Source: Lingula anatina (lineage: Eukaryota > Animalia > Brachiopoda). From it: DNA of 64,000 nucleotides. Location: positions 18,286,587-18,350,586 of the forward strand of contig CM120648.1 in the NCBI GenBank assembly GCA_051362555.1, written 5' to 3'. Both the position numbers and the translations under genes were made by a program. Below, one piece after another: positions 888-27,700 of this stretch (the first letter of the stretch is position 1; every line of letters starts with the position of its first letter). The notes beneath the pieces are model-generated. The model was not told the DNA's origin. It saw only the letters and a program-made list of their open reading frames with translations, and did not search any database.

Positions 888-3800
888 GGCCCCTTTGTCC
901 ATGTAGCCAGTATTGTGGCCACTTTGTTATCCAAGTTAATGGCCGTCAGAAGGATTTATGATGTAAGTATAGTGTGCTAACATAAATATTTATGTCAAAC
1001 GTACAGTCAGTATCATGTTTTTTTTTTCCTTTTTTTGAGGGGGAAGGCATTTGTAGTGTACTGTCAGTTTGTTGAAATTGTTTAGATGCACAGGTAATAA
1101 ACTGAAAGATTATGTTACAACTTTACAGCATTATGACAATTTATTTTATATTATAAAGATATTATTGTTACATTAGACACATACTTCCAGAATGAATCCC
1201 GTAACTATGAGATGCTGGCTGCTGCCTGTGCTGTGGGAGTGGCATGTACTTTTGCTGCTCCTATTGGAGGTATGCTGCTATCTACTGCGGTAACATAAAG
1301 AAACAAGAAAGAGACATAAAGAACAAGGAAGAGATTTTTCTGATAATTGACAGATTTAGAACTTTTGGGGAGCTAAAAATATCACTGGCCTAGGGGGCCC
1401 CTAGGTCCCATGCCTTATTTTCTGACTTTTTCACTGTATGGCAGTCTTATCCCTGTATAAAACTTAATGTTCAGGACAGATATAGGGCAGGGCTGTAACA
1501 CTAAAAAAAATTCTTATATTTAGAAATCTGGACACATCTTAATTTGAAATATGTCCTATTAAAAAAAAGTATTTCAGTCAACTTTGACCTTGGTTAATGA
1601 GTTGCTGTATGCTTCAGTAACTTCATGAAATTGTTAATTTGTCTTTTTTTCTCTTCAGGAGTGTTATTCAGTATATATGTCACGTCAGTGTAATATTTTA
1701 CTACCTTGTTTCTCTTCAGGAGTATTATTCAGTATAGAAGTCACATCAGTATATTTTGCTGTCAAGAACTACTGGAGAGGATTCTTCTCTGCCGTGTGTG
1801 GGGCTGCGGTATTTCGCTTACTGGCAATATGGGTGCAGGAAGAAGGTATCTAAAGAAGAGAATTCCAATTTTTTCCATCAATCATCATATTTAAGTTTAT
1901 GAAAAATTGATTTGTCAGATTTCAATTAATTTTGCTTGTTTTAACTGATTACAATAATTGGTTAAGAGCTCAATTTTACCAGAGTTAATCATTGGTTTAG
2001 AGCTAAGTTAGAACTAGGGGCCGGCTTTGACCAGCTGGAGTACCAGAGACCCTCATTTGACCACTTCAGCTGGTTGTCATACAGGCTTGTCATAGGGATC
2101 TTGGAGGAAATGCAAATTATTGTGATACTGTGTTGCTTTTTATTGAATTATGTTAACCATCCATCTTTCTTTGCCTCCATAGAAACCATCACTGCCCTGT
2201 TTAAGACTAGTCTAAGACAAGAGTTTCCATTTGATGCTGTGGAGCTGTTGGCATTTGGTACCATAGGGTAAGTCACCAGTGGGGTATAAGGTTTAAGACT
2301 AGTCTAAGACAAGAGTTTCCATTTGATGCTGTGGAGCTGTTGGCATTTGGCACCATAGGGTGAGTGGCTGGGGAAGGTGGAGCCAATTTGAAGGCTTGTC
2401 ACTGGGAGGGTTATGTACTGGGAGGGTGATTTAGTAAAAGGGCAAGTCACTGGGAAATGGGTCAGTCACTTAAATAAGCAATTCACAGGAAGGATAAGGT
2501 GATTGCACATTTAGTTTTCATCATTTGTCTGTTTTATTATTGTGACATTCATTTTAGCTGAGCCTACAGTGCCTGAGTTGTAGAACATGTCATTTGCTTG
2601 ATATGTTAATATCTGTGTCACTGTGATTGAATTATATGAGGAATCACAAGTTTTGAATAATTTCAAAGCAGTTCTTAACAAATAAGAACTATGCTTGCAG
2701 TGCAGTTTATATAAAAGGGAGTATGTTTTCTATCGGTAAATGATGCATCAGGTTAAAATTATTGTCAGATGGTACCTTTTTTTTCCTTTTACAGATTGGT
2801 GTGTGGGTTTGGAGGTGCTCTGTTCATTTATTTCCACAGGAAAATTATCCACTTTATACGAAAACAGAGGAAATTGTCCTCCTTTCTCCAGAAGAAGTAA
2901 GTACCAGTTACAGCAGGAGTCATCCACTGCGCGTATGGTACAGGTGAGTACCAGTTACAGCAGGAGTCATCCACTGCGCGTATGGTACAGGTGAGTACCA
3001 GTTACAGCAGGAGTCATCCACTGTATGTGACTTACAAGAGGGTAATTATATGGAGGTGCAAATGATTTGTTGATGTATGTCATATACAGTAGACCTCAGG
3101 TAGTTGTAGCCACTTCAAACATTCATAAAATGATTACACTTGTATTTTGCTCACAACACTGTGAAGCGTACTAAAAGAGTGAGCATGCAATTATCCTTTT
3201 GTTGCTAAAAGTAAATGTTTTTATGATTGTTATCACATAGGGAAATGTTTGGGATAATTATGTAAAAAGGACATAGTGAAGATACCTTATATAAGTGTTC
3301 AGTTCATTTCCATTGTATGTGTAGATATAGGGTGTAGTAAATATGAAATGTTTTATTTATTTCAGTTGATTCATCTATCCAACTGTGATAACATTTTATG
3401 TGTAGATATGTGTAGTAAATATGATGTGTTTTATTTATTTCAGTCGATTCATCTATCCAACTGTGATAACATTTTTGATATCCACTCTATCCTTTCCCCT
3501 GGGGCTGGGGCAGTATACAGCTGGAATGGTACATATCATGGGGGGTGGGGGTGTTATCCTTCCCCCTGGGGCTGGGGCAGTATACAGCTGGAATGGTAGG
3601 TATCATGGGGGGTGGGGGTGTTATCCTTCCCCCTGGGGCTAGGGCAGTATACAGCTGGAATGGTAGGTATCATGGGGGGTGGGGGTGTTATCCTTCCCCC
3701 TGGGGCTGGGGCAGTATACAGCTGGAATGGTAGGTATCATGGGGGGTGGGGGTGTTATCCTTCCCCCTGGGGCTGGGGCAGTATACAGCTGGAATGGTAG

Positions 3801-6800
3801 GTATCATGGGGGGTGGGGGTGTTATCCTTCCCCCTGGGGCTGGGGCAGTATACAGCTGGAATGGTAGGTATCATGGGGGGTGGGGGTGTTATCCTTCCCC
3901 CTGGGGCTGGGGCAGTATACAGCTGGAATGGTAGGTATCATGGGGGGTGGGGGTGTTATCCTTTCCTCTGGGGCTAGGGCAGTATACAGCTGGAATGGTA
4001 CGTATCATGGGGGGTGGGGGTGTTATCCTTTCCTCTGGGGCTGGGGCAGTATACAGCTGGAATGGTAGGTATCATGGGGGTGGGGGTGTTATCCTTTCCT
4101 CTGGGGCTGGGGCAGTATACAGCTGGAATGGTAGGTATCATGGGGGTGGGGGTGTTATCCTTTCCTCTGGGGCTGGGGCAGTATACAGCTGGAATGGTAG
4201 GTATCATGGGGGTGGGGGTGTTATCCTTTCCTCTGGGGCTGGGGCAGTATACAGCTGGAATGGTAGGTATCATGGGGGGTGGGGGTGTTATCCTTTCCTC
4301 TGGGGCTAGGGCAGTATACAGCTGGAATGGTAGGTATCATGGGGGGTGGGGGTGTTATCCTTTCCTCTGGGGCTGGGGCAGTATACAGCTGGAATGGTAT
4401 GTTTTCTAGAAACATTTTTCACAAGACTAGGAAGCAAACATATGATTAGTTTGTCTGATTTACCAACACAACTTACCAAACACCTCTTTCCTGCATTAGT
4501 AATAGATACCTCAAAATGTACAGAGATTATACTGCTGTGGGCATAAGTCACTTTCCACAACTCATGACAGTCCATCTGTCCTTTCAGTTCTCATGGAGAA
4601 ATTTAATGTACTTTCAGTTAACTCACCGAGCAGCTGTGAATGAGTTGTTTAGTAACTTCACATGGTCCACGGGGGAAGCAGAGAACTTAGATCTGGACCA
4701 ACTAGAGGTCCTCAGTCACTGGAATCACCCGGACACCAGCGTCTACGTCACACTGACTTTGTTTATTATTATACAGGTGAGATTTACTCTTTGTATGAGA
4801 AGACCAAATATCAACCCCAGTCTAATTGTATGAAGATTTTAAGAGTTCCAAATTGGAAAATATATCAGTTTTAACTTAACTTTAAAATATGCCGTGTGTC
4901 AATGTAAGGCTTAAATATAAATATGGATATTTTAGATATATATAATTTTAAATCTTTGTGCACTGATTTTTATGGTGTGGTATGATCTTTCAGGTTCAGT
5001 AAGGTACAGTGTAATAATGGAGTGTTGTACAGAGTGATCTCACACAAACAGTTTACTTATAATAATAATGGATTACATTTGTTTCTAGTTTATGTGATCT
5101 TTCAGGTTCAGTAAGGTACAGTGTAATAATGGAGTGTTGTACAGAGTGATCTCACACAAACAGTTTACTTATAATAATAATGGATTACATTTGTTTCTAG
5201 TTTATGTGATCTTTCAGGTTCAGTAAGGTACAGTGTAATAATGGAGTGTTGTACAGAGTGATCTCACACAAACAGTTTACTTATAATAATAATGGATTAC
5301 ATTTGTTTCTAGTTTATGTGATCTTTCAGGTTCAGTAAGGTACAGTGTAATAATGGAGTGTTGTACAGAGTGATCTCACACAAACAGTTTACTTATAATA
5401 ATAATGGATTACATTTGTTTCTAGTTTATGTGATCTTTCAGGTTCAGTAAGGTACAGTGTAATAATGGAGTGTTGTACAGAGTGATCTCACACAAACAGT
5501 TTACTTATAATAATAATGGATTACATTTGTTTCTAGTTTATGTGATCTTTCAGGTTCAGTAAGGTACAGTGTAATAATGGAGTGTTGTACAGAGTGATCT
5601 CACACAAACAGTTTACTTATAATAATAATGGATTACATTTGTTTCTAGTTTATGTGATCTTTCAGGTTCAGTAAGGTACAGTGTAATAATGGAGTGTTGT
5701 ACAGAGTGATCTCACACAAACAGTTTACTTATAATAATAATGGATTACATTTGTTTCTAGTTTATGTGATCTTTCAGGTTCAGTAAGGTACAGTGTAATA
5801 ATGGAGTGTTGTACAGAGTGATCTCACACAAACAGTTTACTTATAATAATAATGGATTACATTTGTTTCTAGTTTATGTGATCTTTCAGGTTCAGTAAGG
5901 TACAGTGTAATAATGGAATGTTGTATAGAGTGATCTCACACAAACAGTTTACTTATAATAATAATGGATTACATTTGTTTCTAGTTTATGTGATCTTTCA
6001 GGTTCAGTAAGGTACAGTGTAATAATGGAGTGTTGTACAGAGTGATCTCACACAAACAGTTTACTTATAATAATAATGGATTACATTTGTTTTCAGTTTG
6101 TGTGATCTTTCAGGTTCAGTAAGGTACAGTGTAATAATGGAGTGTTGTACAGAGTGATCTCACACAAACAGTTAACTTGTGATAATAATGGATTACATTT
6201 GTTTCCAGTTTGTGACAGCTGCTTTGGCTGGTTCTCTCCCCATTCCTGCTGGAGTGTTCATTCCTGTCTTCACTATAGGTAAGTTGTGTCATCATTTCAC
6301 CACTTACTGTTGCCTTGTCAACTATTCCCCATGCTGCGGACTGCGCAATTACATATTAAAGGAAAGCTTTTTTAATAACATTTCATTTTGTTTTGTTGTG
6401 TTTGTTAAAATTGATAACATGACTGTTCAGCAGTAGGTATGAGCAGTTTGAGTTCAGGTACATTGATAATTCTTTATTAATTTGAATAATTTTCATCATC
6501 CTTGGATAATCTACTAATTAATTATATATGGGTGGAAAATGAATTGAAAAATGATGCAAATGAAAGAGAATTTTAATAATTATGCTGTTCCGTGAAAAGT
6601 TGAACTTGAAAAGCACTGACCTTGACCTACAGTGACCTTGACCTACAGTGACCTGTCCACTCTGGTCTCACAGTGTCACACCTGAAGATCGTGACAGCTG
6701 TTGTTGTGGCTGAATGCCCATTTTCCTTCACTATGCTGCCATCTTCAGGTTAAAATTAGCTAAGAGAATGTTCTTAATTATTCCCAGGTGCTGCCTTTGG

Positions 6801-9800
6801 TCGTCTTGTAGGAGAGTGTTTGGCTACGTGGTTCCCCAGTGGAGTGAGGATGGGGGATCAGGTGTCTCCTATAGTACCTGGAGGATATGCTGTAGTAGGT
6901 AAGTGTATGACTACATGATATCCCAGTGAAGTCAAGATGGGAGAGCAGGTGTCTCCTATAGTACCTGGAGGATATGCTGTAGTAGGTAAGTGTATGACTA
7001 CATAGTACCCCAGTGAAGTCAGGATGGGAGAGCAGGTGTCTCCTATAGTACCTGGAGGATATGCTGTAGTAGGTAAGTGTATGACTACATGGTATCCCAG
7101 TGAAGTCAGGATGGGAGAGCTGGTGTCTCCTATAGTACCTGGAGGATATGCTGTAGTAGGTGAGTGTATGACTACATGGTATCCCAGTGAAGTCAGGATG
7201 GGAGAGCAGGTGTCTCCTATAGTACCTGGAGGATATGCTGTAGTAGGTAATATCATGTAACTCAGCAGTACTCTCTATCACTGTTAAGATTCATATTAGA
7301 GTCCTCTACAAACCCATGATAGTAACTACAGGTATGAAAGTTGATCACTTATCACTTCAATTATACTTGGTCTAGTGTGTCAGTTATTTTAAATATTGAA
7401 AAAAAATGAATATTATTATTCCAAACTGAGTTGTTCAGTACATTATTTATTAATAAGCCAGCTGTACATGTATCTTAATGCAGCAGCTATTGCTCTTAAA
7501 GCTGGCTGATATCGCATTGGAAAAAAATGTCAGTGGCATGTTCGTTTCAGTGTTTTTTTTTTTTGTTTTCATAATCATAAAGTGTGTGTTTATCACTGTG
7601 TAGGAGCTGCTGCTTTGGCAGGAAGCGTAACCCACACCATTTCCACCTCTGTGATAGTGTTTGAGCTAACGGGACAGATATCCCACATTCTACCTGCTGT
7701 GGTAAGACAACTGATTGTTTGATAAATGTGATAGTTTTAGAGCTAACGGGACAGATATCCCACATTCTACCTGCTGTGGTAAGACAACTGATTGTTTGAT
7801 AAATGTGATAGTTTTAGAGCTAACGGGACAGATATCCCACATTCTACCTGCTGTGGTAAGAAAACTGATTGTTTGATAAATGTGATAGTGTTTGAATTAA
7901 TGGGACAGATATCCATATTCTATTGGCTGACAGCATTGTTGGTCTTTGTAAAATTTAAATATATTAAATAAATTTTATAAAACCAACACTTATTTTTCAT
8001 TATCTGTATATCATTTGTATACTCAAGATAGCAGTGTTGATAGCCAATGCAGTCGCCCACAGCCTTCAGCCGTCCATTTATGACAGCATCATCCAGATCA
8101 AGAGGCTACCTTACCTGCCTGATATCATCCCCACCAAGTCCAGGTAATAAGTGATATCATCCCCACCAAGTCCAGGTAATGTGTGATATCATCCCCACCA
8201 AGTCCAGGTAATAAGTGATATAATCCCCACCAAGTCCAGGTAATATGTGATATCATCCCCACCATGTCCAGGTAATATGTGATATCATCCCCACCAAGTC
8301 CAGGTAATATGTGATGTCATCCCCACCAAGTCTAGGTAATATGTGATATCATCCCCACCAAGTCCAGGTAATATGTCATATCATCCCCACCATGTCCAGG
8401 TAATATGTGATATCATCCCCACCAAGTCTAGGTAATATGTGATATCATCCCCTCCAAGTCCAGGTAATATGTGATATCATCCCCACCAAGTTCAGGTAAT
8501 ATGTCATATCATCCCCACCATGTCCAGGTAATATGTGATATCATCCCCACCAAGTCTAGGTAATATGTGATATCATCCCCTCCAAGTCCAGGTAATATGT
8601 GATGTCATCCCCACCAAGTCCAGGTAATGTGTGATATCATCCCCACCAAGTCCAGGTAATATGTGATATCATCCCCACCAAGTCCAGGTAATATGTGATA
8701 TCACGCCCACCAAGTCCAGGTAATAAGTGATATCATCCCCACCAAGTGCAGGTAATATGTGATATCATCCCCACCAAGTCCAGGTAATAAGTGATATCAT
8801 CCCCACCAAGTCCAGGTAATATGTGATGTCATCCCCACCAAGTCTAGGTAATATGTGATATCATCCCCACCAAGTCCAGGTAATATGTCATATCATCCCC
8901 ACCATGTCCAGGTAATATGTGATATCATCCCCACCAAGTCTAGGTAATATGTGATATCATCCCCTCCAAGTCCAGGTAATATGTGATATCATCCCCACCA
9001 AGTCCAGGTAATATGTGATATCACGCCCACCAAGTCCAGGTAATAAGTGATATCATCCCCACCAAGTGCAGGTAATATGTGATATCATCCCCACAAGTCC
9101 AGGTAATAAGTGATATCATCCCCACCAAGTCCAGGTAATATGTGATGTCATCCCCACCAAGTCTAGGTAATATGTGATATCATCCCCACCAAGTCCAGGT
9201 AATATGTCATATCATCCCCACCATGTCCAGGTAATATGTGATATCATCCCCACCAAGTCTAGGTAATATGTGATATCATCCCCTCCAAGTCCAGGTAATA
9301 TGTGATATCATCCCCACCATGTCCAGGTAATATGTGATGTCATCCCCACCAAGTCCAGGTAATATGTGATATCACGCCGACCAAGTCTAGGTAATATGTG
9401 ATATCACCCCCACCAAGTCCAGGTAATATGTGATATCATCCCCACCAAGTCCAGGTAATATGTGATATCATCCCCACCAAGTCCAGGTAATATGTGATAT
9501 CATCCCCACCAAGTCCAGGTAATATGTGATATCACCATAACTAAGTCAAGGTAATATGTGATATCACCCCCACCAAGTCCAGGTAATATGTGATGTCATC
9601 CCCACCAAGTCCAGGTAATATGTGATATCATCCCTACTAAGTCAAGGTAATATGTGATATCATCCCCACCAAGTCTAGGTAATATGTGATATCACCCCCA
9701 CCAAGTCTAGGTAATATGTGATATCACCCCCACCAAGTCCAGGTAATATGTCATATCATCCCTACCAAGTCTAGGTAATATGTGACATCATCCCTACCAA

Positions 9801-12705
9801 GTCCAGGTAATATGTGACATCATCCCTATCAAGTCCAGGTAATATGTCATATCATCCCTACCAAGTCCAGGTAATATGTGACATCATCCCTACCAAGTCC
9901 AGGTAATATGTGATATCATCCCTACCAAGTCCAGGTAATATGTGATATCATCCCTACCAAGTCCAGGTAATGTGACATCATCCCTACCAAGTCCAGGTAA
10001 TATGTCATATCATCCCTACCAAGTCCAGGTAATATGTCATATCATCCCTACCAAGTCCAGGTAATATGTGACATCATCCCCACCAAGTCCAGGTAATATG
10101 TGATATCATCCCTACCAAGTCCAGGTAATATGTGATATCATCCCTACCAAGTCCAGGTAATATGTGACATCATCCCCACCAAGTCCAGGTAATATGTGAT
10201 ATCATCCCTACCAAGTCCAGGTAATATGTGACATCATCCCTACCAAGTCCAGGTAATATGTGACATCATCCCTACCAAGTCCAGGTAATATGTGACATCA
10301 TCCCTACCAAGTCCAGGTAATATGTGACATCATCCCTACCAAGTCCAGGTAATATGTGACATCATCCCTACCAAGTCCAGGTAATATGTGATATCATCCC
10401 CACCAAGTCCAGGTAATATGTGATATCATCCCCTCCAAGTCCAGGTAATACTTTCAGTACAAAACATTTTTCTGTACGTGAAATATTCCATGTCAGATGT
10501 GTTATCATATCCTTCTTGCAGCCCATATTATGTACATATATATATAATGTCTGGTGTCTTTGCAGCACTTACAATGTGTTTGTGGAGGACTTCATGATCC
10601 GTGACATCAGGTTTATCAGCTATATCGCCACATACCAGGATGTGAAGAATCTGTTGGAGACATCCAAGTTAAGAACATTCCCATTGGTGGATGCCCCAGG
10701 TAGGGTAAACACACATGTGTAATGGCACTGGAGAAAGTTTGATTTTCTTCCTACAAATCAAACAGAGGCATGTCTGAAATCCCAATCAGGATGTGTTTTT
10801 ATCCAGGGATGGAACCATGGTTCGTGGAAGCAGTGTTGAACCAGTCAGATTTTTTAAAATCAAAATATATGTGTGAAAGCTCCTCCTTTAACCCTTATTT
10901 TGTCCTGTCTGCTATACCTTGAACATAGCACTGGCATATCAGGATCTCTGTGGGATTCCAAGACATGGGATTTATTAACTGAACATTGTACACTGTTCTG
11001 TAGTCTTCTTACTTAGTGTTATATTCTAGTATGTCAGTTTTACATGGTATTATCAGGTTTGAAAGCACCTTTCCTCTGATATTCTGATAGGCTTTTTCAC
11101 CAAACAGTTTATAACAGGTATACATAAGACATTTATTTTTAGTATTTAGACCACTAACATATTGTTATATGTATACAATATAATGATATGCCATTCAGAA
11201 GACAATCATATCCATTATGTTGTGTATATTTCCAGAGTCCATGATTCTCCTTGGGTCTGTACAGAGACTGGAGCTGGAACTGCTACTGGAGGCTCAGCTT
11301 GGATGACAGCGCCGTCTGGCAGCAGTTGAAGAGGCATTACATAAACGGCAACAGGAAGAGAGCCAAGGAACAGCTGGAGAAGAGGACGTCCCAAGGCGAT
11401 ACCGAGGGGACGCGACCAATGGCGGCCTGCAGTGGAGATATGTTGAACGCTGTGAAGGTCCACCGTCAGCCGTCAGCCAGGTTTACGGTGACCCCTGCCG
11501 CCAGCAAGGTGGACAGTGGTGGACAGGTCCAGTTGAAGCTGGACTCCACGGTAAACAATGTGTGTGTTTGTGGATTTGAATGATAATCACAAGGACCATT
11601 CCCACAGATATTTGGATTGATCTATCTCCCTGGGTAGTCTCACTACATTACTATCCCCTTAACTGGCTTGAATGCCTGTCATGCCTAGTAAAGCTGATAG
11701 GGTGTAATTAAGCCAGTTATTTCATAGCAATTTATTGAGACTTCCCTGGGAGTTAGACCGATCCAGATGGTGTGATAATATATGTGAAATGATATTACTA
11801 CATTATCTCTGCCATCATTCCAGCTACCAGAACAAACAGCTAATGGAGACACGCTGAAACCGCACAAGTACACCAAGGCACCACAGAGAGGGATATTAAA
11901 GAAGAGTCCCCGTCCCAGCCCCCGGGCTAGTCCCAGGGCCAGTCCTAAAGGAAGTCCTCAGTCTTCACCTCGCTCTAGTCCACCAGGGTCTGCCAAGACA
12001 AGCCCCACACCCAGTCCACAGTTAGGTTAGCCAGCTCTGGGCTACTACACTGGTCTGAAAGTTAACTTTTGATGTATTAAGAATATGGCTAAGTTAAAGG
12101 ACTGTCTAGAAAATATTCCAGTTTTTATTAAAATCACACTGCAGTTTCTCAAAAAAAAAAAAAAAAAAAAAGAAGGGTATAGTGTATATAATTTGGTATA
12201 AAAAAAACGAATGATCATGAATAATTATTTAAAATTACTGAATTAGAGTAATGTGATTTTTAAGTAATCTTTACATTAGCTTGATGCAAGATGAGGTTAA
12301 AAATTGCTTACATTTAAAAAGATAATTTTAACCCTCTATAACAGGTACCTATATAGTATATACACCCTTAGGTTTATTTACCATCACACTATTGTTTTCC
12401 ATGTACCTTTCTCTGTTTATTTTGATAATGAAGTTTGATTAATTTTGATTTTACAGAAAAGAAATTCAGCATTGGGCTGGCAAAGATTTTCAAATCTCGA
12501 AGTAAAGAAAGTATCGCGGACAGTACGGCTTCCGAAGATGATGAAGCTCAGGTAACTATGGCAACAAACTGATAAACAGCATGGAATATTTTAGTTTAAA
12601 AGTCAATATTTACAGGGTTCTGTATTCTACTTATGAAGGATTAGCAGTGTGAGGACTCAAGTATATCTAATTATATTATATATAGCATCGTGAATATCAT
12701 AAGAG

Positions 12706-12768
<63 letters not shown>

Positions 12769-15700
12769 TATATATATAGCATCGTGAGGGTAGTGGCTAA
12801 GTTTACATTTATCTATTCATCTGTGTTTAATGTTATTATTTTTTATTTATTTATATCTTTTGCATGTGCTGTAAGTCTCTGCATACATGAAGTACCAGTT
12901 TGAAGTGAATAGTTCATAATTGAAGATGTATAATATATATTGTAATAGAGTGACCATGATGTAAGGTTTCAGAGTGTGGTACTGATATTTGGGTCATCCA
13001 GACACCATTAAACTACCTGAAGGTCAACATACCTGTATCTACCCAGGTTTGTCAACTGTTTGCCCTCTGAGTCAGTACAACAGTTAATGTGTGGTATTAC
13101 ACCATTAAAACTACCTGAAGGTCAACATACCTGTATCTACCCAGGTTTGTCAACTGTTTGCACTCTGAGTCAGTACAACAGTTAATGTGTGGTATTACAC
13201 CATTAAAACTACCTGAAGGTCAACATACCAGTATCTACCCAGGCTTGTCAACTGTTTGCCCTCTGAGTCAGTACAACAGTTAGTGTGTGGTATTACACCA
13301 TTAAAACTACCTGAAGGTCAATTCCATAAAAGCATTCTAACTTAGCATGGTACTAGGCCTTAGAATAATTCTAAATCCCTAGTTGTATACTTGTGAGCAA
13401 TCAACTACTATTCCATAAAGCCATACTTAGAAACATTCTTACTAGTTGCTTGCTAAGATTTGGCTAGAATGGTGTCTTCATAGGAAAACCACAAAACCAC
13501 AGGGTCAGTTTCGCCAAACAATAGGCAGTGACAGGGTGAAAGTTGAACTGAGTGCAGGCTGAGGGAAGTACTGATCAAGGCATTCCCATGTATTCTATAA
13601 AAGCCCTATACAGAAAGATGTCAAAATGGCAACTTCAGAAAAATAAAGCTTGGGGAAAGCATATTGTATCAACACAAGGCAAGGTTTCCTAATGTGTTGA
13701 GATCTTTGGAAGACTTGAAGACAAAACTCTCCAAACTAAAAATTGAATCTTTTGCAAATTAATTAAGCAAGAGAATCTGAAGTTAAAACAAAAAAATTGA
13801 AATTGGAAATTGAACTTTTGGTCTATAAACTTAATGCAAACACACCATTAAACTACCTGAAGGTCAACATACCTGTATCTACCCAGGTTTGCCAACTGTT
13901 TGTCCTCTGAGTCAGTACAACAGTTAGTGTGTGGTATTACACCATTAAACTACCTGAAGGTCAACATACCTGTATCTACCCAGGTTTGTCAACTGTTTGT
14001 CCTCTGAGTCAGTACAACAGTTAGTGTGTGGTATTACACCATTAAACTACCTGAAGGTCAACATACCAGTATCTACCCAGGCTTGTCAACTGTTTGTCCT
14101 CTGAGTCAGTACAATAGTTAGTGTGTGGTATTACACCATTAAACTACCTGAAGGTCAACATACCTGTATCTACCCAGGTTTGTCAACTGTTTGTCCTCTG
14201 AGTCAGTACAACAGTTAGTGTGTGGTATTACACCATTAAACTACCTGAAGGTCAACATACCTGTATCTACCCAGGCTTGTCAACTGTTTGTCCTCTGAGT
14301 CAGTACAACAGTTAGTGTGTGGTATTACACCATTAAACTACCTGAAGGTCAACATACCTGTATCTACCCAGGCTTGTCAACTGTTTGTCCTCTGAGCCAG
14401 TACAACAGTTAGTGTGGTATTAAGCCTGGGCTAACAGCCAGCTGCTGTATGCACTGTACACTTGGTGTTATATTCAGCATATAGTTTCATTCTCATGGTC
14501 TGTCTGATTTGGTGAAATGTAGATATTAACTGTAAGTGAAATGGTCTGGGTATTATTTGAATGTCTGCTTTTATATTATATTTCACTATTGACAGGATTC
14601 CTCCCTGTATGAGTTGTATGTATGCTATCATATTATATTTCACTATTGACAGGATTCCTCCCTATATGAGTTGTATGTATGCTATCATATTATATTTCAC
14701 TATTGACAGGATTCCTCCCTGTATGAGTTGTATGTATGTTATCATATTATATTTCACTATTGACAGGATTCCTCCCTGTATGAGTTGTATGTATGCTATC
14801 ATATTATATTTCACTGTTGACAGGATTCCTCCCTATATGAGTTGTATGTATGCTATCATATTATATTTCACTGTTGACAGGATTCCTCCCTGTATGAGTT
14901 GTATGTATGTTATCATATTATATTTCACTGTTGACAGGATTCCTCCTTGTATGAGTTGTATGTATGCTATCATATTATATTTCACTGTTGACAGGATTCC
15001 TCCCTGTATGAGTTGTATGTATGCTATCATATTATATTTCACTGTTGACAGGATTCCTCCCTGTATGAGTTGTATGTATGCTATCATATTATATTTCACT
15101 ATTGACAGGATTCCTCCCTGTATGAGTTGTATGTATGCTATCATATTATATTTCACTATTGACAGGATTCCTCCCTGTATGAGTTGTATGTATGCTATCA
15201 TATTATATTTCACTGTTGACAGGATTCCTCCCTATATGAGTTGTATGTATGCTATCATATTATATTTCACTGTTGACAGGATTCCTCCCTGTATGAGTTG
15301 TATGTATGCTATCATATTATATTTCACTATTGACAGGATTCCTCCCTGTATGAGTTGTATGTATGCTATCATATTATATTTCACTATTGACAGGATTCCT
15401 CCCTGTATGAGTTGTATGTATGCTATCATATTATATTTCACTATTGACAGGATTCCTCCCTGTATGAGTTGTATGTATGCTATCATATTATATTTCACTA
15501 TTGACAGGATACCTCCCTGTATGAGTTGTATGTATGTTATCATATTATATTTCACTATTGACAGGATTCCTCCCTGTATGAGTTGTATGTATGCTATCAT
15601 ATTATATTTCACTATTGACAGGATTCCTCCCTATATGAGTTGGACCCTGAGTCTGACAGGTTCTTACACAGGCGTGGCAAACATGCCCATGTAAAGCTGG

Positions 15701-18700
15701 TAAGAAGATGGCTGCTGCTTTACAAACCACGTTTTATTTGATCATGTGACTTGTTATCTAGTCATGTGACCACAGCTTTTGACCACATGTTTTGCCATTG
15801 TTTCACAACTTTTGACTGCAGTGTGTAGGTGATTTAATTTTTGTAGCAGATTGCTGTGATTGTGTTTTATCATAACCCATTTTTGTTAGTAGTTCCTAGC
15901 AAGATTGTTAGTTGCCATTGTGTGGCTTAGTTTTAGTTTTCTTATATGGTAAAATATTCAGAGCTGTCCTTGTGTCTGTAAGTATAGCTTGATGATTGCA
16001 GTTGTCAAAGTGAGAAGATTTTTACTTATTTTCTGTTTGGATTTTGCTAAGAATACTATCTGAATGCTGTTAGTTTGCTGTGGTCATTTTTGAGGATGAG
16101 ACAAAGGCATGACTGCAAGTAATGTTATTATAAATAGACTTAGGAAACTATAGAGAAATAAACTTATATTGCTGATTGAAAAGAACACAAACCGATTGTC
16201 AAAATGTAATGAAAAGTAGATTTTGATCATTTTGTAACGGTTTTCTAACAAACATAGCATCTGCACCAAAAGCTGCTTCTGTTTTGATATTTTTTTCTGC
16301 TCGCAGTGAAAACCAATTAACATATGTTTTGTCTACAAAATCATTTTCATTTGTATTGAAGCATATATTCTTGAGACTCTGACTGCTTGGATTGATGTAA
16401 AGTTTTATTTTATAAAAAAATTTATTATTATTTTCTTTCTTGTAATCAATTAATAGTCTTCACATCCAAAAGAACTTCAGAGCAACCCAAGATGAGACAC
16501 TATAAAAACCTGGACTGGTTTTCTAACTGTTCATGTAGTTCGAATCCCATAAATATGTCTGGCATTTTAATAAACGACACATGCAGATATCAAAGAATCA
16601 TCACAAGTTGGAGCACATTTACTCTCCCTAAAGGTTGCCGCCTTAGTGCAGAGTATCAATTTGTGAAATTGTCCTCTCTTGTTGTTCACTGGCTGTGGTA
16701 ATTGAGTTGTGTTATCTTGTAAACTGTTATGAGGGGAATTATGCAATGGCTGCTGCCCAGAAACCTATTAAATATATAGATAAACACTGATTTATAACAT
16801 TCTCAACAGATGATATTGTGCAAACAATTCTGTTGGGAAGTATAAATTGGCATATGAACAAAAACCAGTTGAAAATCAAGATGAACATGCACTGATGTTG
16901 ACAGGGGTCAGCTGCTTTCTGCTTTCTCTGTGCACCAGCTTATAATTACTAGTTGTACATATTTGGGGAAGTTCCTTAACTGACTGCCACTCCCCCCCCC
17001 CCCCCCACCACTCCTTCACAATGGTGATCTTCATCTGAAATCTACTAATGAGACTATCATGTTTCTTACTACTATCTATACTTTCCTGTGTACATCATTA
17101 ATACCTTGCATGTTGAGGCCTGGTGGCCTAAAATATCTTATGATTTATGGTGGTTCATCCATTGGCATGCTTTAATAATATGTCTTTATGTTTACTAACA
17201 CCTTTATTATTTGATTTCAGTTGTCAAGAAATACCCTTCCTCCTTACATTCTCTTTAAATTTTATAGTACAGGGATGGGAGCATCCTCCTTCAAATTTTG
17301 AATTACAGGGATGGAAATTTCCCAAGGTTTTAGCAGAAAAGACAACTACATTTTGTTAGAAATGCTACAAGAGTAGGAGACGTCAGTGTTGAAAAGTAGG
17401 TGCAGGTTCCTTTCTCTCCAAACATTGTTTGTTCCCATCCCTGTACATGATATGTAGCAGTTAAAACACCATTAAACCAGCACTTTGATGTGCAGCATAT
17501 TTAAGACACCATTCCCAGAGCCTATCGCACTAACTTTGGATCGGTCCAGGGGGATTCCCACTAAATTGCTATCAAATTAAACAGCTTAGATGTCTCGCAC
17601 ACCCACTGAAGCTGTTAGGGGGTAATTAACTCATTAAGCAGCTTTAGCAGATGTGCCAGACATCTAAGCTGCTTAAGCTGAAAGCAATTTAGGGAGAAAC
17701 CCCTTGGAGGTAAATAGATCCTCTAAGATCAATCTAGGCATGGTAACCCAGTCAACCTTATTAGTCAACTCTGTTATGTGCATGTGCAGCATATTTAATA
17801 TCCTATCAGTCAACAATGTACCTTGTACCTTGATAGCATGTGCATGATATCCATACCCTTATATTTGCAGATCACATTATTGTCAAATACAGAATTTTCC
17901 AAATATTTATTTTAAAGCAAGGCTTCAAGTGATGGATTGTCATATGCACATATTTATTGTTGATGTTTAAGGATGCCCAGTATGTAGAACATTATTATTA
18001 ACAGTGGATTTCTATTAATATTGGGTTGAAAGTTACATTGCACTTGCTGTTTCTTAGATAGTTTAATTTGCAGTCAACAATTTTAGATATTACACTCTCA
18101 TAGATGTAATCAACATTGATACAACTTATCTGTTCGCCAGAATTTTTTTTTCTCAAGAAGTTAGGTTTCTTGGCTACTGAAATGAGAGTGTAAACCTAGT
18201 ATTTGTTGTCATGGTAATTCTTTCTGTTGCATGTTTTTCTTCATTTTCCTTTCCCTGCATTTTCTCCACTAGAGGTCTCTTCTAGACGATTTCCCCGAGC
18301 AATATACTGACTCTGTGCGAAGTGGCAAAAGTGTTCAATTTAATGTCTTGGACTTACAAGAGGTAAGTTTAATGTCATAGGTTTACTAGAGAAAATGTTA
18401 AAGTGATGAACATGCAGGTGAGTCCTGAACCATGCTTTCATAAACAAAGTAAACAGAGGCTGGCAGATCTGCTGCACTGTGGAAATTATACTTTTGAAAT
18501 ACTGCCACTACCCATGTCAGTAATTATCAGTGATGTTTTTAAAAGTAATAAATATTGTTATATACTTATTCGTTTCACTTAATCGCATATAAATCATTTA
18601 TTGTCTAATAACTCGCAACGAAAACACCAACCACCGTTTCCAATACAAATCATTTATTTCGTTAACCCTTGCTATGAGCTGTTGTTTGCTTGGCTGCGTT

Positions 18701-21700
18701 ACAGAATGCGTACACACCACGCACTGACTGTCCTTCACAAACTCTCCGACTATAACCATTTACAAACTTCTCTTATTTCCTCTACTTCTGCTATTTTCTT
18801 TTCAACCACCTTTTATATATTTCAATAAATTCTTTCGTTCCATATTTGAACTATTTCATTTTTATAGATATATTACCGAATGTGTAAATGCCCAGAATTT
18901 ACTGTACCTCAGGAACCATTATTTCTAATGTCTTATCCCAACTACTATCTCTTCTTTGTTACCAATTTTGTACATTTTACACTGATCTATGTTTTCTTCA
19001 TTAATCATAATTATTTCTAAGCACATACCCTTTAATACTCCAATTAACTTATTACAACTGTTCCATTTTGTGCCTTCTCTGATGTATTACTTTCTTGACC
19101 AAACTTCTATATCATTTAAAATATTCTTTGTTTTATATTTGCGATTTACTTGGACCTGACGCAGCAAGCTGAAAACAGCCTCGAATGAAATCTGCTCATC
19201 TCACATTTCCTTTTATACTATTGTGCAATGCACAATCTGCGCATGTCAAACTCCCCGCCCTATGAACTCATTTCCTCACCTGAATTGCTTCTCTAACACA
19301 TTTTGCGTTGACTCGTTAAACGACAATAAATTCATTTATATACTTATTCGTTTCACTTAATCGCATATAAATCATTTATTGTCTAATAACTCGCAACGAA
19401 AACACCAACCACCGTTTCCAATCCTAATCATTTATTTCGTTAACCCTTGCTATGAGCTGTTGTTTGCTTGGCTGCGTCGACCACAAAGAACGGGCAATTT
19501 TCATTTATTCTTATTCTTTAAAAAACAACCATAAAATTATTTTATTATTAAGACATATATGTATACTTACCAGCTGAAAACAAATATATATTTATATATT
19601 TACCTTTATAACAAATTTAAAAATGAACACGTATTATTTATCTTAATATTTCTTTTTATATTCCAATATTTAGAGACACTTGAATCCTTTTTGACAAACT
19701 ATCTTTTATATATCCGTCTTTCGCTTTATCAGAAATCCAACGTCCATGTTTTTTAAACAAACGGTCTTTTACTCCAAAATTTGCTGCCGCTGTAGCTCCT
19801 CCCACACGCATACTATGTAAACCAAACTTTTGTCTGTCAAATCCTAATATTTCTAGCTTTTGTAAAATAACTTCTCTAATTCTTGTATACGACATTTTTC
19901 CGTTTTTACGTAAAATGTGCTTTTTGGATTTCTTTAAATAACTAACTGGTCTAAATATAAAATTATCTGAATGTTCTTCAATGTTAGCTGCTTCCAAATA
20001 TCTTTGTAAAAAAGCATATGGACATGTAGATTTCCCAGTTTTAGCAATCAAAACCGTAGATCCGTCCCTGTAAATGTCAGTTTTACTTTTTTCTATAAAT
20101 ATCTCAAAATATTGTTCTGTAAAAGAAATATCCGATCTTTTAATATTGCATACCTCGCTATATCTCAAAAAACCTGCAAATGATAAAAGGAATATACAAA
20201 CATCTCGTAAATCTGCTAAACTAGCATTTGTATTAGCGAAATTGTTAATCATCATTTCTAACATTTTCGGAGTAACTATTTCCTTTTTTACTGTTTTCTT
20301 GCGTGACGTTCTCTTTGACGCTTCAACAATATTATTTATCATAGGATTATCACACGGATTTGGATTTATACCTGCTATTTCATGTGTCCATTTTAAACCA
20401 TATTTAACGTCTTGAATCGTTCCTGGTTTACACGAATGCTGTATCAAACTCAACATGTAAAGTGCAATGTGATGCGTTTGAGCTGGAAAAACTTTTACTT
20501 CTTCAAAATTACTCGCCCATTTTTTCCATCTCTGAAATACGGATGAGTACTTGCGTACAGTATTTTCTGCTCTTGAATGTTCCAAAACCTGTGGTAAATC
20601 TGCAGCCAAACTCTTTAGTGTTGTGTCCTGTACCTCTCTCATCTTTGTCCAAATCCCTGTTCTGAAAATCTGTAATAGAAAATGTCCTTTCGCATCAATA
20701 CCACAAATGCAATTTCTATGCTACTTGTCTTTAATCTTTCTCTCTGATCTTTATTTATTTCATTATGTTAACTTCACTATTCAACATTCACCTTACAATT
20801 CCTCTTTTATATGACATATTTTCATTCTATAATTTGCATTTTTTTTTTTTTTTACTTCAACCTGCAAACATGTAACAAATTTTTCTTTTAACCATTACCA
20901 TGTCATTACTTTTTATAATTTATCAATATGTATTAATTTTACATGTAAAACTGAATTTATATCCCATTTATCTTTTCAAATCCAATTTTGATTCCTATTA
21001 AATCTCATCTTGATTCATTTCTAATCACATCTCGATTTATATCCAATCACATCTTGATTCATATTCATATCGAACCACACCTCGGTTCATATCAAACCAT
21101 ATCTTGGTTTCATCAAATGACATCTCAATTTATATCTAACCACATTTCGATTCTCATCGAACCACATCTCTATTTGTATCAAACCAAATTTCTGTTCGCA
21201 TCGAACCAAATTTCTGTTCGCATCGAACCACATATCTGTTCGCATCGAACCAAATCTCTGTTCGCATCGAACCACACCTCTGTTCGCATCGAACCCCATA
21301 TCTGTTCGCATCGAACCAAATTTCTGTTCGCATCGAACCACACCTCTGTTCGCATCGAACCCCATATCTGTTCGCATCGAACCGCATCTCTGTTCGCATC
21401 GAACCACACCTCTGTTCGCATCGAACCAAATTTCTGTTCGCATCGAACCACATATCTGTTCGCATCGAACCGCATCTCTGTTCGCATCAAATCAAATCTG
21501 TTCGCATCAAACCATATCTCGGTTCATATCGAATCACATCTCGATTCAATTATCCAACATATCCATCTCTATCTTATTTTTGTTTCTTCATAAATGAATA
21601 TACTACATAAAATCTTGTGTAACGAATGTCATGATCCATTATAAATCCTTCAAATCACTTCTAGATTTTATCATGTTCCATTGCATTTTATAATTTTCAA

Positions 21701-24700
21701 CCTTTCACCTACTTTAAATCTAATCTTGATCTAACCTTTTTATTCAGAACAATCTATCCTTATTGCCAGAATTTGATGCTTGAAGTTTTTTGATCCTATA
21801 TAAGAATTTTTGTTTTTCCCTTGTTTGCAAATATCACATCCGTTCTTAAACTTTATTATATCCTTAATATACCATTTCCATTTTGAATTTTCATCTTGTA
21901 ACAATGGCCAAAATGTTGCTGATTTCCAGTCTGGTACTACCAAAGTACCCTTTGCTTTGCAACATAGTAAATGATTTATAACTTTTGGCACTAATGCTAC
22001 TGGAGGTACTAACCAATTATTTTCGTTTGACCAATCCTGTAAAAATGCATCAACCGCCTCTGTATTTGGATTCCAAAATTTTGAATTAAAACGAGTTACT
22101 TTTGTATTTTCATAATTAGCAAATCTATCTATTGTATACGATCCCCATTTTTTATTCATAAAATTAAAGAAATTTTCCGTGACTTCCCAATCATCTGTGT
22201 CTATAATTTTACTTATAAAATCTGCTTTTGCATTTTGTGTCCTTGGAATCCATTTTATTTGCAAAATAATATCATTTTCTACACAAAAATTGAAAATATT
22301 TAATGCCAATGTTTGCAAATGCACCTTCATTGATCCAGTCTGTACTATTCTAACAACATTTTTATTATCTGTAAACCATCCGATTTTTCGATTTTTAATA
22401 AATTTCGTAAATGACTGTAATGAAATAAATAGCGCCTTTAATTCTCTCCATGTTGAGCTCTGTTTTTTCTCACTATCAGACCACATTTTGTGACAAATCT
22501 CAGAATTGCATCTAATCAAATATCCTCCGCATGCATGTTCGCTTGCATCTGAAAACCCCAGTATTTTTGGTACATCTTCCACAAACATGACTCTGCGATT
22601 TAGTCTGTCAATGTTCGACAACCAAAATTTTAATTCATTTCGCAAATCTGACTTGTCCTTCAAATCCTCGATACCATCCCAATTTCTCCTGTCATTTATG
22701 ACCTGATGCATATTTCTAGTCATCAGTCTCGTTACATCTCCGAACACTATATATAAAGATATAATTTTTCCCGTAATTCTAGCTAAACTTCTAGCAGATG
22801 TGTTTGATATATTTTCCATTATTTCCATTATATCAATTTTTAAATCTGCCACTCTTTTATCAATTATTGAAAGAATCCCTTTTTTCAAATCCCATTGTAA
22901 GCCCAACCAGTTTAATGTTTGTGTTGGTTTCCACATACTTTTGACTTCGTTTACTACGAAACCAGATTTCAATAAATCGTGTCTGATCAAATTCGCAAAT
23001 CTTTCGCAAGTCTCAAAATTTTCGCTAAATCCCAAACCATCATCTAGGTACATAACAATTGGTATATGTTTTGATCTCCAATGTTTTACTAAACATCTCA
23101 AAACTTTCGTGAATATGTAACCTGCTGACGAAATTCCAAAAGGGAGCACTGTATAAACATAATATTTAATTTGACCATTCATACGCCAAGAAAACCCCAA
23201 AAAATCTTGTTGTGATTCCTTAATATCTATGTGATGATAACCATCTTTCAAATCAAACTGAAACATATACCCTCCCAATTTAACATATTGTAGAGCCTCG
23301 TTTGCGTCTTCAAATTTTACTTTCTCTTTCCAAATGTATGGATTCACATGTCTTAAATCAAGTACTAAACGTTTCTTTTTGCCGTTAGATGTAACCGTTA
23401 ATGGATTTACCACCTTTGGAATTTCCTTAACTTCTCGAATTCTGCCAGATTTTAATAAATCTTTAATGGTATTTATAACAAATTCTGTGTTTTCAAGCGA
23501 TGATTTGTTATTCTTGATAAATGAATTTGGTGGTGTCTCAATAAATGGAATAACATATCCATTTTTTAATACGTCTAAAATATATTTATTAGCCTGTATG
23601 CTTTCCCAGAATTGATAGTTTCTCTTAAGTCTTCCTTTAACATTTACATTTTGATGATAATCTAACAACCCATCTGAATTTCTCAAATTATTATCTATCA
23701 TATACTTATCTTTCATTTTTGATTTGCTCATCTTGCTTTTATTTGTTTTGTTGCCACCCGCTGTATGTAGCTTCGCTTCCTCTGAATTTCTGTCCGTATG
23801 TTCTTTCTCGTGGATGCACTGTACTCTGTGCTTGGTCTTTGTATGGACAGCTTTCCCTCCAATGGCCATATTGTCCACAGGCGAAGCACTGGTCGTTTGG
23901 GTTTGGGAATCTTTTTCTTCGAAAAAGAAAGCTTCCTCGATCAGATATACCTGCAAAATTGACTGATGCAGTATAATTCTTTTTATTGTAATTAAACTCG
24001 TTTTTGTTACGCCTGTTTTGATTTCGTATTCGCATTTTTCTACTGGCTCTCATTTGTGCAGACCGTATTTTCTTTTTATCATCACTATCTTCTGCTAGGT
24101 CATCTGATTCGTATTCTTTTACTGCTTCCCAACCTGCTTCTGACTTATCTGCTATTCTTATAAGTTTATTTCTCTTTTGTAAAATGTCAGTGCCTTCCTT
24201 TATTGCCTTACGAGCCTCTTTTACATGTCCGTCCTTAATCAACATATCAGCTTTCTGCATATTTTCGATTACTTCAGTATTTATTTCGAACTGCTTTTGA
24301 TTTCCCGCAAATTTTAATTTTTTCTGTACTGTCTTGGCTTTTTTGTTCTGACTTTGACTTTCTTCGACTAGCTCCCTTTTCAGTGATATAAACTGTTTGT
24401 CCATATAAGACTTGAACACAGAAAATGTGTCCGTCATTTGTCCAGCTGAGCTGTTATCATTTACATCACCTTTCTCATTGAAAGTTCCTTCATTGCCCTC
24501 TTCTTTATCTTCTACTGCCAAATTTAAAAATTCTCTGCTCTCACTCTCGGTATCTTCACTCTCCGAGGTTGACTCCCTTCTTCTCTTCGACATACCAGCG
24601 ATTTACTTGGACCTGACGCAGCAAGCTGAAAACAGCCTCGAATGAAATCTGCTCATCTCACATTTCCTTTTATACTATTGTGCAATGCACAATCTGCGCA

Positions 24701-27700
24701 TGTCAAACTCCCCGCCCTATGAACTCATTTCCTCACCTGAATTGCTTCTCTAACACATTTTGCGTTGACTCGTTAAACGACAATAAATTCATTTATGTGT
24801 CAGTTACTGCATCCCAGAGCTAATAATATGATATCATGGAGGATACTGGGGTCTAGTCAGGGTCAGGGGGAGATCAGAGGTGAAGTGAAGGTCAGGGCAA
24901 GGTCAGAGGTGAAGTAAAGATCAGGGAGAGGTCAGAGGTAAAGGTCAAGAAATTGTCATTTGTCCATCACAAGATCAGTCTTGGGTCAAGAGACCCAGAA
25001 ATGTGCCAAAAGAAGTTATATTGAAACAGTCATTTGACAACTGGGATGTAAAGCAGTTGTTTCTTTATGTATAATATTATTTATTAATTATGATTTTATC
25101 GATATGAATATTATTTCTTTAATTTTTTGGAATTTTATAGGCTTACCAAATATTTCATAGTTGAAGGCTAATTTTAAGGTTGCTTTTTAGAAGTGACTTA
25201 GTAGACATGCTTTTCTTGCTAGTTTATACATGTATATATTTTAGATGTCTAGCTTTCCTATGGAATATTGTATCACTTGTGGTGATACTCTAGTAGTATT
25301 TACTATTATACCCCAGACACTGGTTTAGGGGTGTATGGACTACAGGTTGGCTGTCTGTTAAGTTTGTTCATTAAAATTGCTTGACTTGGTGAAAACATCA
25401 CATAACAGGTCAGCAGATTGTATAACTGAAATTTTCAGACTTTTTTAAGATGAAGAAAAGGTAAATGATGTTAGTGAATTTTATGGATATTTCTTTGTAT
25501 TACGGTAAGTTGATTTCTGGAATGCATCTAGTAAGGTGTGATGTGTGGTATATTTGATCTGTTTATCATGTGTGTGTTGTGTTTAGAATTTATTTTGTCA
25601 TGATTGTAGAACTTGCAGTGATGAGAGCCTTAGTGTCTTCACTAGAGCAGCTTGCAGTGAACTGACACATGGTTTTATACTATATTGACTTTAGAGAGTA
25701 TCTAGAACCAGTTTCAGAAAATGACTTAAAAGTTTGCTTTTCTTTAAAGTCTTTATTGCATTCAACATAAATTCTGAATTAAAGACGAGACTTTTAACTT
25801 AGCTGAAATCACCCTACCTGGTTAACAATAGAATGTTATTTTAAAACCCGATATTTTATTTGAAAGGTATAGGTGATGAGATCAATAACCTTTATAAAGA
25901 TGTTGCGTAGTTTATGTATTAAAATGGCACATTTCTATACTTCAAAAATAACTGATTTCAAAAAGTTATCATTCTGTCATTGGATTATTTCTCTTCATTT
26001 GCAAGCCTCCACAGAGAGTGATAGATTTGAGTGAAGAAGAGGTAAAGTACCAGTAGCATGATGTGTGCTGTGTTCATTTATAAACTGACATCAGAGAAGA
26101 CTTACATCCGCTGTGTTATGTTAGAACAATTAAGTAGTTTTTCTTCAATCAACAGCTAATATTTGGCAGCGAATATTGCCTCATTCCATGATGTAGATAC
26201 TCTTGAGAGACAGTGAAATATTGGAGGTAATTATTAGCTGCCAGTATTCACTGGTCATTGAAGAAAAATGTCTTTATTCTTAAACTGACATATTGTTAAT
26301 GTTGTTTAGTTCAGTCATACCCAGCCAAAGAATTTTAAACCAAGTTCAGAAGAAGGCAGATGAAGGCGGTTGTTTTGACAGAAGCTTCAAAACCAGAAAG
26401 AAAGTGACCAAGTGTATAATAGGCCAATTTATCTGCTGCTTCTTTAAAAATATATGTTACATTTTGTTTACTTATTGATGTCAGGGGCAGATAATAAGGG
26501 TTGAAATGTCAAATAATTGACATAAAGTGTGACCTATACCATCCCATCCCCAGGTACTCATAGTAGTTAAGATGTGAATTATGGTTTTGTCCTAGATATT
26601 CAATATTAGTACTTGAACCTAACTCACACTGCTTCATTTTGACAGCCTTAAGTCATGCCAAAAACTATAAGTATAATAGTATAAATATTTCACAACTGTC
26701 ACTATGAATGAAAATCATAATATTTAATCAATAACAAAAATAAAAAAATAAGTCTTGAGATTCAATTTTTTAAAAAACTTACATAAAAGTGTATCACATT
26801 CTATTGAATTACAACTTTATAGGCTAAGAATTGGTTAAATTCCTTCTTGGATCACTATAAGGCTTTTGCAGTTAAGATGGAAGGCTTTATTATATGAAGC
26901 AGGGTCTGGCTCTGTAGATATTAATGACAACCTGTTTTATTGCTCTCTGTAGATGTAAAATGACACAGTTGTTATTACACTGGGTCTGGGTCTGTAAATT
27001 CCATTGCTGGTCAGTTTTATTTCTTCCAGTAGTCATAAAATAGCACAGCTCTCAGTGGCAGATATTAAGAGGGGTGTTAGGGGGGTCCTGACCCCTCCCC
27101 TCCCCTTCGATTACTGAGAAAAAAATCACATCTATAATTCCTCTTGAAATTAGAATTGTGTGTAGCTTAATCATAGTTTTAAACTATACCAGATGTCACC
27201 GTTCACCAAATAAAATACCAAAATATCAGCGGGCCCCGAACCCCACGTCAGCAGGGGAAGGGGAGACTTCAATTCCATGGACCACCCCCTTCAAATAATT
27301 CTGGCTTCGCCCTTGGCTCTTATTGCACAGTAATGCACTGCTTGTAGTGCTCTAGATATGGTTAGTCTCTTCCTCCATGTAGTGTTGCCATTTTGTATAG
27401 CCTGATTAAAGCTCATCTTATATGACAATGGCAATGAACAGTTTCCTAATTTTGAATGATTCTTGATAAGTTTAGTCTTGTTCTGCTTACTGCTAACATT
27501 AGATTGGATTGCTGTCCTAATTTTGGAGAGCACTGTAGATAGTCATGATAGTGTCATTGTTTTGACATGGTGTGACATTTGTTTGACAGTGTTGTGACAT
27601 TGTATTGATGATAGTGTGATGTTGTTTGGGTGTAGTGAAACATCTTTACAAGGTTTTTATGTACAGACACAGATGTGTCTGTACATATTGCCATCACCTG

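What the first reader, a model, noticed from the sequence alone, without database searches (positions are those of the whole stretch)
6808..7250. 87-bp array: a donor apparently created at a duplication junction, with stops in the first two in-frame copies
Seen: the 'intronic' start GTAG|gtaagtgtatgactacatg aligns, exactly 87 nt upstream, with exon-internal GTAGGAGAGTGTTTGGCTACGTGG (6808 onward), so the whole unit is exon-derived. Only the last copy (7247, gtaatatcatg) continues into unique intron. The unit is 29 codons and frame-preserving, but the Trp codon is TGA in copy 1 (6916-6918) and TAG in copy 2 (7003-7005), while copies 3-4 keep TGG. Inference: the duplication used GTAGG microhomology, the ancestral donor is 7247, the present donor (6899) is a junction product, and use of any downstream donor would now trigger NMD.
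Basis: partly seen in the sequence, partly recalled or inferred. Interest (0 to 1): 0.7.

Follow-up and report, generated by a model that had tools for sequence, protein, structure and literature searches.

The report
Repeated splice donors in brachiopod gene
In a chloride-channel gene of a lamp shell (Lingula), the end of one exon and its splice signal are copied four more times into the next intron; the few RNA reads use the first signal, and the copies are likely drifting repeat DNA of a kind already known from lancelets and humans, here at unusually many exon ends.

Summary
In detail: an 87-bp array (6808-7250) repeats the tail of a 111-nt ClC-2 exon, with five GT donors, TGA at 6916 and TAG at 7003. 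The gene is Lingula ClC-2-like. RNA from three runs shows only the 6898>7604 joint (8 reads), with zero depth over 6921-7184 (shallow). It is a 'mirage' (exon-intron boundary minisatellite), one of 13 on the 46 splice sites annotated in this window; 9 of 9 arrays in the compact part of the gene sit on splice sites against 3.1 expected. But pure GTAGG microhomology gives no GT, so the GT was probably copied with the unit. The array is old (copies keep an ancestral Met), and its last 41 nt match the exon, which suggests continuing exchange. Downstream donors would hit a stop, but selection for the stops is unshown, and this allele has a separate nonsense codon and frameshift. This scan reported the same class in other genomes. 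Low to moderate interest.

The parts
6788..6898 (+). Authentic 111-nt coding exon of a ClC-2-like chloride channel (AAFGRLVGE...PGGYAVV)
   Evidence: AG/GT and open frame; ungapped match to ClC-2 467-502 and ClC-1 492-527; RNA joints on both sides
6808..6894 (+). Exon-resident repeat unit (unit 0)
6859..6899 (+). 41-nt tract identical between exon and copy consensus; the 9 informative differences all lie in 6820-6858
   Evidence: P about 0.015 for a tract this long anywhere in the unit
6899..6904 (+). Used 5' splice site TAG|GTAAGT, chimeric (GT or GTAA as in the old donor, rest from exon)
   Evidence: joint 6898>7604 in 8 reads from 3 of 4 RNA runs
6895..6981 (+). Intronic copy 1, TGA at 6916-6918
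6982..7068 (+). Intronic copy 2, decoy donor at 6986, TAG at 7003-7005
7069..7155 (+). Intronic copy 3, decoy donor at 7073, no stop
7156..7242 (+). Intronic copy 4, decoy donor GTGAGT at 7160, no stop; probably the older junction type
   Evidence: contig end in run X10 (inference)
7243..7250 (+). Terminal partial unit with weak donor TAG|GTAATA at 7247, joined to unique intron
   Evidence: same junction without differences in contigs of X1 and X4
7251..7603 (+). Unique intron remainder
7604..7701 (+). Next coding exon ([11 protein letters not shown]...), itself followed by a 77-bp donor-straddling array

Best explanation
This is a minisatellite made of the tail of a ClC-2 exon plus its splice donor, in which the RNA reads seen use the first donor, and the four intronic copies are likely neutral decoys whose two stop codons likely arose by drift. 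Steps: (1, inferred) an old tandem duplication took the last 83-85 exon nt plus the first 2-4 intron nt, so the exon kept a GT in place and gained GAGT/AAGT-type letters from exon sequence, giving at once a donor stronger than the original. (2, shown at low depth) splicing runs 6898>7604, so the protein is unchanged. (3, shown) the copies changed residues that are near-invariant in homologues, so they are not under protein constraint. (4, inferred) unequal exchange or conversion expanded the array and keeps its last 41 nt equal to the exon end. (5, predicted) any leak to a downstream donor would meet TGA 6916 and be an NMD substrate in this haplotype; that is a consequence, not shown to be the cause of the stops.
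For: RNA: joint 6898>7604 in 3+4+1 reads (X15, X18, X16; none in X12, which does not cover the exon); depth 0 over 6921-7184 in 4 of 4 runs against summed depth 14.8 on 6789-6854. Donor 6899 pairs with U1 best of the 19 real donors scored; 7247 is about 6 kcal/mol weaker. Among 50 homologues with the same spacing (of 58 proteins held), A, F and G are kept in 50, 49 and 50 while the copies have T, Y, E; 48 have M, as the copies do, where the exon and P0002 have L. Expressed allele X18 has the copies' letters at 6828 and 6846. Array present in 4 of 4 DNA runs, one of them with 43 other letters in a 534-nt intronic piece. 13 of 46 splice sites in the window are straddled; 9 of 9 arrays in 888-12551, 3.1 expected, P 5e-5; 0.002 to 0.011 under harsher counting. 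Same anatomy and first-site use in PMC3087553 (section 16 read), PMC3902484 (passage) and PMC1557585 (abstract, introduction).
Against: RNA is thin: zero downstream use in 8 to 15 informative molecules only bounds it below about 18-31%, NMD would hide such RNA, and the animals are not the assembled one. X16 has about 24 letters laid in 7185-7250; these fit the exon end equally well but cannot be assigned. Two of the 4 novel private changes are nonsense at the same Trp codon in the two most proximal copies, P 0.007-0.03 if random (post hoc; two further private letters equal to the exon's were left out). The one-step breakpoint cannot be told from microhomology plus a later A>T. Human 6-16 and CBS arrays do use pseudo-sites (PMC1557585 introduction).
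Confidence: 0.78

Rival explanations
1. Selected NMD safeguard: downstream donors leak, a 29-aa in-frame insertion in the membrane domain would poison the ClC dimer, and selection fixed stops in the proximal copies.
For: Two independent nonsense changes at one codon in copies 1 and 2 (P 0.007-0.03); this is the one donor array of 7 in the gene whose unit is a multiple of three, and its copy-4 type unit is stop-free; identical strong donors at 6986 and 7073.
Against: The second stop is redundant behind the first; 3 of the 4 novel changes are G>A, as are 4 of 9 exon-copy differences, and TGG is one G>A from a stop at two sites; no leak seen; this allele has a nonsense codon and a frameshift further on, so it probably makes no full channel anyway.
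Confidence: 0.12
2. Two-step rescue (closest to the first reader): microhomology at GTAGG first lengthened the exon by 87 nt to the old donor; a silent A>T then created a new donor that restored the exon.
For: Copy 4 differs from the exon at the junction by this one letter; X10's contig starts at 7219, 30 nt before the first letter that separates a GTGAGT copy from the last donor, which suggests GTGAGT is the older type (inference).
Against: Needs an intermediate with 29 extra residues; none of 58 proteins held has the PGxYA motif twice; a breakpoint two letters further needs no mutation; the other exon-containing donor arrays of the gene carry their intron starts inside the unit. X18's exon has G at 6810, so GTAGG is not fixed.
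Confidence: 0.2
3. Assembly artefact: the array or its stops are consensus errors.
For: The stops are single letters in near-identical copies and could not be confirmed in an independent sample.
Against: Array contigs and the last-copy junction occur in 4 of 4 DNA runs; copies differ from the exon at 9 shared sites, some matching other alleles or homologues.
Confidence: 0.04

Closest known systems
Amphioxus 'mirage' minisatellites (Adh3, globins BflGb6/9, TnC, PGBD5); PMC3087553 section 16 read, PMC3902484 one passage read; the original Adh3 paper was not held
   Same: Tandem duplication of an exon-intron boundary, unit size in the reported 10-160 bp range, both donor and acceptor types in one genome, normal splicing, concerted turnover with divergent edge units, length variation.
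   Different: Brachiopod, not cephalochordate; 11 arrays in one gene part; this unit is about 97% exonic and frame-preserving, and its used donor is chimeric.
Human F7 IVS7 37-bp VNTR, and 6-16, CBS IVS13, lamin B2, PDGF arrays (PMC1557585, abstract and introduction read)
   Same: Authentic donor followed by identical pseudo-donors; the most upstream one is used.
   Different: F7 unit is 4 exon + 33 intron nt, the reverse of this unit; there the rule was tested by mutants, here only 8 reads.
Intron gain by tandem duplication of AG/GT proto-splice sites (Rogers model, as summarised in PMC3087553)
   Same: Duplication of exon sequence holding an AGGT-like motif.
   Different: No new intron: no joint into the array is seen and the intron position after VVG appears old.

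Membership tests
Exon-intron boundary minisatellite ('mirage') | Head-to-tail array of minisatellite-sized units | tested here: met
   87 bp x 5.1, 93%
Exon-intron boundary minisatellite ('mirage') | First unit spans a real exon-intron boundary and the splice signal is reiterated | tested here: met
   Boundary 6898/6899 proven by RNA joint; five GT donors
Exon-intron boundary minisatellite ('mirage') | Authentic exon-proximal site is used; mRNA normal | tested here: met
   8 reads, 3 of 4 runs; no depth over 6921-7184; low depth
Exon-intron boundary minisatellite ('mirage') | Copy-number polymorphism | tested here: inconclusive
   Summed contig depth over 6789-7250 is 8, 16, 21 and 84 flank units in 4 runs, but this is no copy number; the neighbouring 77-bp array lacks two units (154 nt) in an X3 contig
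Exon-intron boundary minisatellite ('mirage') | Concerted turnover with edge units excluded | tested here: met
   Copies 2-4 letters apart, exon-side edge 10-13 apart, 41-nt identical tract
Exon-intron boundary minisatellite ('mirage') | Somatic length instability (reported for Adh3) | not testable with these tools
   Needs single-animal long reads
Intron gain by tandem duplication | A new intron position using a duplicated AG as acceptor | tested here: not met
   Only joints 6278>6788, 6898>7604 and 7701>8028 are listed as skips; four homologous ORFs lose similarity right after GYAVVG, as expected for read-through into an intron at the same place (inference); upstream boundary matches CLCN1 c.1471+1
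Regulated AS-NMD (poison) splice event | Measurable use of the stop-bearing isoform and a conserved stop | tested here: inconclusive
   No use seen but depth is low and no NMD-blocked RNA exists here; conservation of the stops not established

The most novel reading that the evidence does not exclude
Lingula has a mutational process aimed at splice junctions that re-copies exon ends at a quarter or more of splice sites, exchanges sequence between exon and intronic copies, and, where a unit keeps the frame, is policed by selection for a stop in the first copy; the 87-bp array would be a natural record of donor strengthening plus an evolved NMD guard.
Probability: 0.15. Interest if true: 0.62.

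Novelty: new member of a known kind. Interest (0 to 1): 0.3.

Why it matters
As a single locus it is ordinary: the class is described and first-donor use is the known outcome. What adds value is density and history. 13 of 46 splice sites in two neighbouring genes carry such arrays, more than random placement gives, and my searches (Lingula or brachiopod with repeat and splice terms, listings only) showed no report for brachiopods. How these arrays arise is stated as unclear in PMC3087553; Lingula would be a rich test bed. The copies also act as an archive of old exon states and may exchange sequence with the coding exon. Practically, both public Lingula ClC-2 models break at these arrays (P0001 lacks the four exons between the 112- and 32-bp arrays; P0002 translates a decoy unit), so annotation of this genome is likely affected widely.

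Tried and rejected
No whole genome is held, so no genome-wide count. The look-up of sequencing runs listed no RNA holder; raw RNA runs of the same species label were laid instead. No contig of the 4 DNA runs was placed on 6921-6986, where a TGA-bearing contig would lie, and 111 rows of differences were not shown: a blank, so not used as evidence that the stops are private. No array-free allele was seen; the X1 joint 7693>7924 is better read as an allele of the last degenerate 77-bp unit than as loss of that array. Coding constraint on the copies was considered (6 of 11 exon-consensus differences are at third positions) and rejected, because the exon lineage adds silent changes and near-invariant A, F, G were lost. 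The E at 6858 in P0002 may be conversion or assembly collapse; not used as support. A paper for the CLCN1 boundary equivalent to 6898 was not found; only the upstream boundary is cited. The Adh3 mirage paper and Zhuo 2007 were not held; no supplements were read. The search of earlier findings had nothing on this genome or on Lingula. No structure prediction was run.

Full report
Setting. The window holds 20 exons (one a presumed cassette exon) of a + strand ClC chloride channel gene between 888 and 31221. Exon 4618-4776 is 96% identical to two Lingula anatina 'chloride channel protein 2' records, so the organism is Lingula or very close. The exon at issue, 6788-6898, matches ClC-2 467-502 without gaps.

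Observation. The 87-bp array, its five donors and the two stops are as described. The exon unit differs from the copy consensus at 11 positions: two at the junction (intron +2, +3) and nine in 6820-6858; the following 41 nt are identical (P about 0.015). Private changes: copy 1 6918 and 6935 (G>A), copy 2 7004 (G>A) and 7008 (exon letter), copy 3 7121, copy 4 7162 (exon letter).

Which donor is used. Four raw RNA runs (3 studies; 6-25% of each run read) were laid on 6195-8150. The joint 6898>7604 has 3, 4 and 1 reads in X15, X18 and X16; X12 does not cover the exon. No joint from another donor is listed (listing needs 3 reads), and depth over 6921-7184 is zero in 4 of 4 runs against 14.8 summed on the exon's first bin. 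This bounds downstream use only below about 18-31%, and NMD could hide it. About 24 letters in X16 lie on 7185-7250; they fit the exon end equally and are unassigned. By U1 duplex energy 6899, 6986, 7073 and 7160 are equal (-12.4 to -12.5) and 7247 is weak (-6.5); 6899 is the strongest of 19 real donors scored. Use of the first of identical donors is the behaviour shown by mutants for human F7 IVS7 (PMC1557585, abstract and introduction).

Origin of the donor. Exon: GTAGGAGAGTGT; copies 1-3: GTAGGTAAGTGT; copy 4: GTAGGTGAGTGT; last: GTAGGTAATATC. A junction inside GTAGG would continue with A and give no donor. The simplest path is a breakpoint after intron +2 (or +4), so the GT travels with the unit and exon letters supply the rest of a near-consensus donor. 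Microhomology plus a later A>T is possible but needs an intermediate with 29 extra residues. Contig ends fit a 30-nt rule in X4 (6888), X1 (7221) and X10 (7219), the last pointing to GTGAGT copies in the most divergent sample; one X4 end (7225) does not fit (inference).

Age and turnover. The copies encode M where the exon has L; 48 of 50 equally spaced homologues have M (57 of 58 proteins had the motif, 7 had other spacing), while P0002 has L and no RNA difference is listed at 6820. X18's expressed exon has the copies' letters at 6828 and 6846, but its own letter at 6867, where this exon and all four copies agree. The array is in 4 of 4 DNA runs. This fits an old duplication with recent homogenisation of the exon-end tract and recent expansion. 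The copies lost A, F and G that 49-50 of 50 homologues keep, so they are not protein-coding. The neighbouring 77-bp array shows the same pattern: letters of other animals' exons at 7665 and 7692 match its last unit, while this exon matches units 1-2.

The stops. All four downstream isoforms stop at 6916, far upstream of later junctions, so NMD is predicted from established knowledge. Two nonsense changes among four novel ones is unlikely by chance (P 0.007-0.03, post hoc), which keeps the guard idea alive. Against it: redundancy of the second stop, G>A bias, no leak seen, and this allele has TGA at 11304-11306 (R in P0001 and P0002) and a frameshift near 11350, so it is probably a null or decaying copy. 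Whether the stops exist in other animals is open.

Context. A lag scan of the window (periods 20-200) gave 34 repeat regions; 13 overlap one of 46 annotated splice sites: 11 of 39 in the ClC gene and 2 of 7 in a minus-strand short-chain dehydrogenase gene. In 888-12551 all 9 arrays found by that scan straddle or start at a splice site, 3.1 expected (P 5e-5); over the whole gene part 11 of 15. Dropping the flagged array gives P 1e-4; also counting the 47-bp array (no exonic letters) as a miss 0.002; adding three short TRF arrays as misses 0.011. The null is simple and covers one gene. First-decoy use shifts the frame or meets a stop in all 11 ClC arrays, mostly through unit length or intron letters.

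Comparison. The anatomy is that of amphioxus 'mirages' (PMC3087553 section 16; PMC3902484 passage) and of human boundary VNTRs (PMC1557585). Earlier reports of this scan describe the class in annelid, shark, ray and other genomes; these are unchecked notes and gave me the F7 lead. Searches for a Lingula or brachiopod report gave none in the listings. Subscription papers are not covered.

Verdict. Real, ordinary in kind, new member of a known class; first reading partly supported. Interest 0.3; the part worth following is the genome-wide density and origin of such arrays in Lingula.

Noticed in passing
window 11304-11306 and about 11350: The ClC-2 allele has TGA where P0001/P0002 have R, and a frameshift a few codons later; also R>K in the AVRNYW motif and G>R near the end of exon 888-962. 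Probably a null allele or decaying copy. Not checked in reads.
   Followed up: partly
window 1641-1755, 2193-2369, 2890-3030, 3329-3482, 3484-4409, 4976-6221, 7647-7914, 8113-10455, 14555-15647, 30559-30897: Ten further splice-site arrays in the same gene (units 61, 92, 47, 78, 67, 112, 77, 32, 57, 109 bp; four acceptor-side, six donor-side), up to 73 copies.
   Followed up: yes
window 37073-37289 and 40019-40170, minus strand: Two donor-straddling arrays (68 and 79 bp) in a short-chain dehydrogenase gene; some of its middle exons were not located.
   Followed up: partly
window 18547-24796, minus strand: Tyrosine-recombinase retrotransposon in a ClC intron: open ORFs with RT, RNase H-like, Dam-like methyltransferase (below cut-off) and phage-integrase domains, and split direct repeats of 199 nt (100%) and 153 nt (96%); PAT/Ngaro-like layout (label recalled). 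Looks recent.
   Followed up: partly
window 7713-7910: X15 and X16 RNA have depth 0.15-1.6 over the 77-bp array but none over 7911-7976: misplaced exon reads, unspliced RNA or decoy-donor use; unresolved.
   Followed up: no
window 15622-15699: Presumed 78-nt in-frame cassette exon, absent from P0001/P0002, preceded by 19 copies of a 57-bp acceptor unit.
   Followed up: no
window 13003-13326 and 13834-14421: Two separate intronic arrays of the same 97-98 bp unit, not on any annotated splice site.
   Followed up: no
P0001, P0002: Public Lingula ClC-2 models break at the arrays: P0001 skips four exons; P0002 translates part of a 67-bp decoy unit and repeats C-terminal exons.
   Followed up: partly
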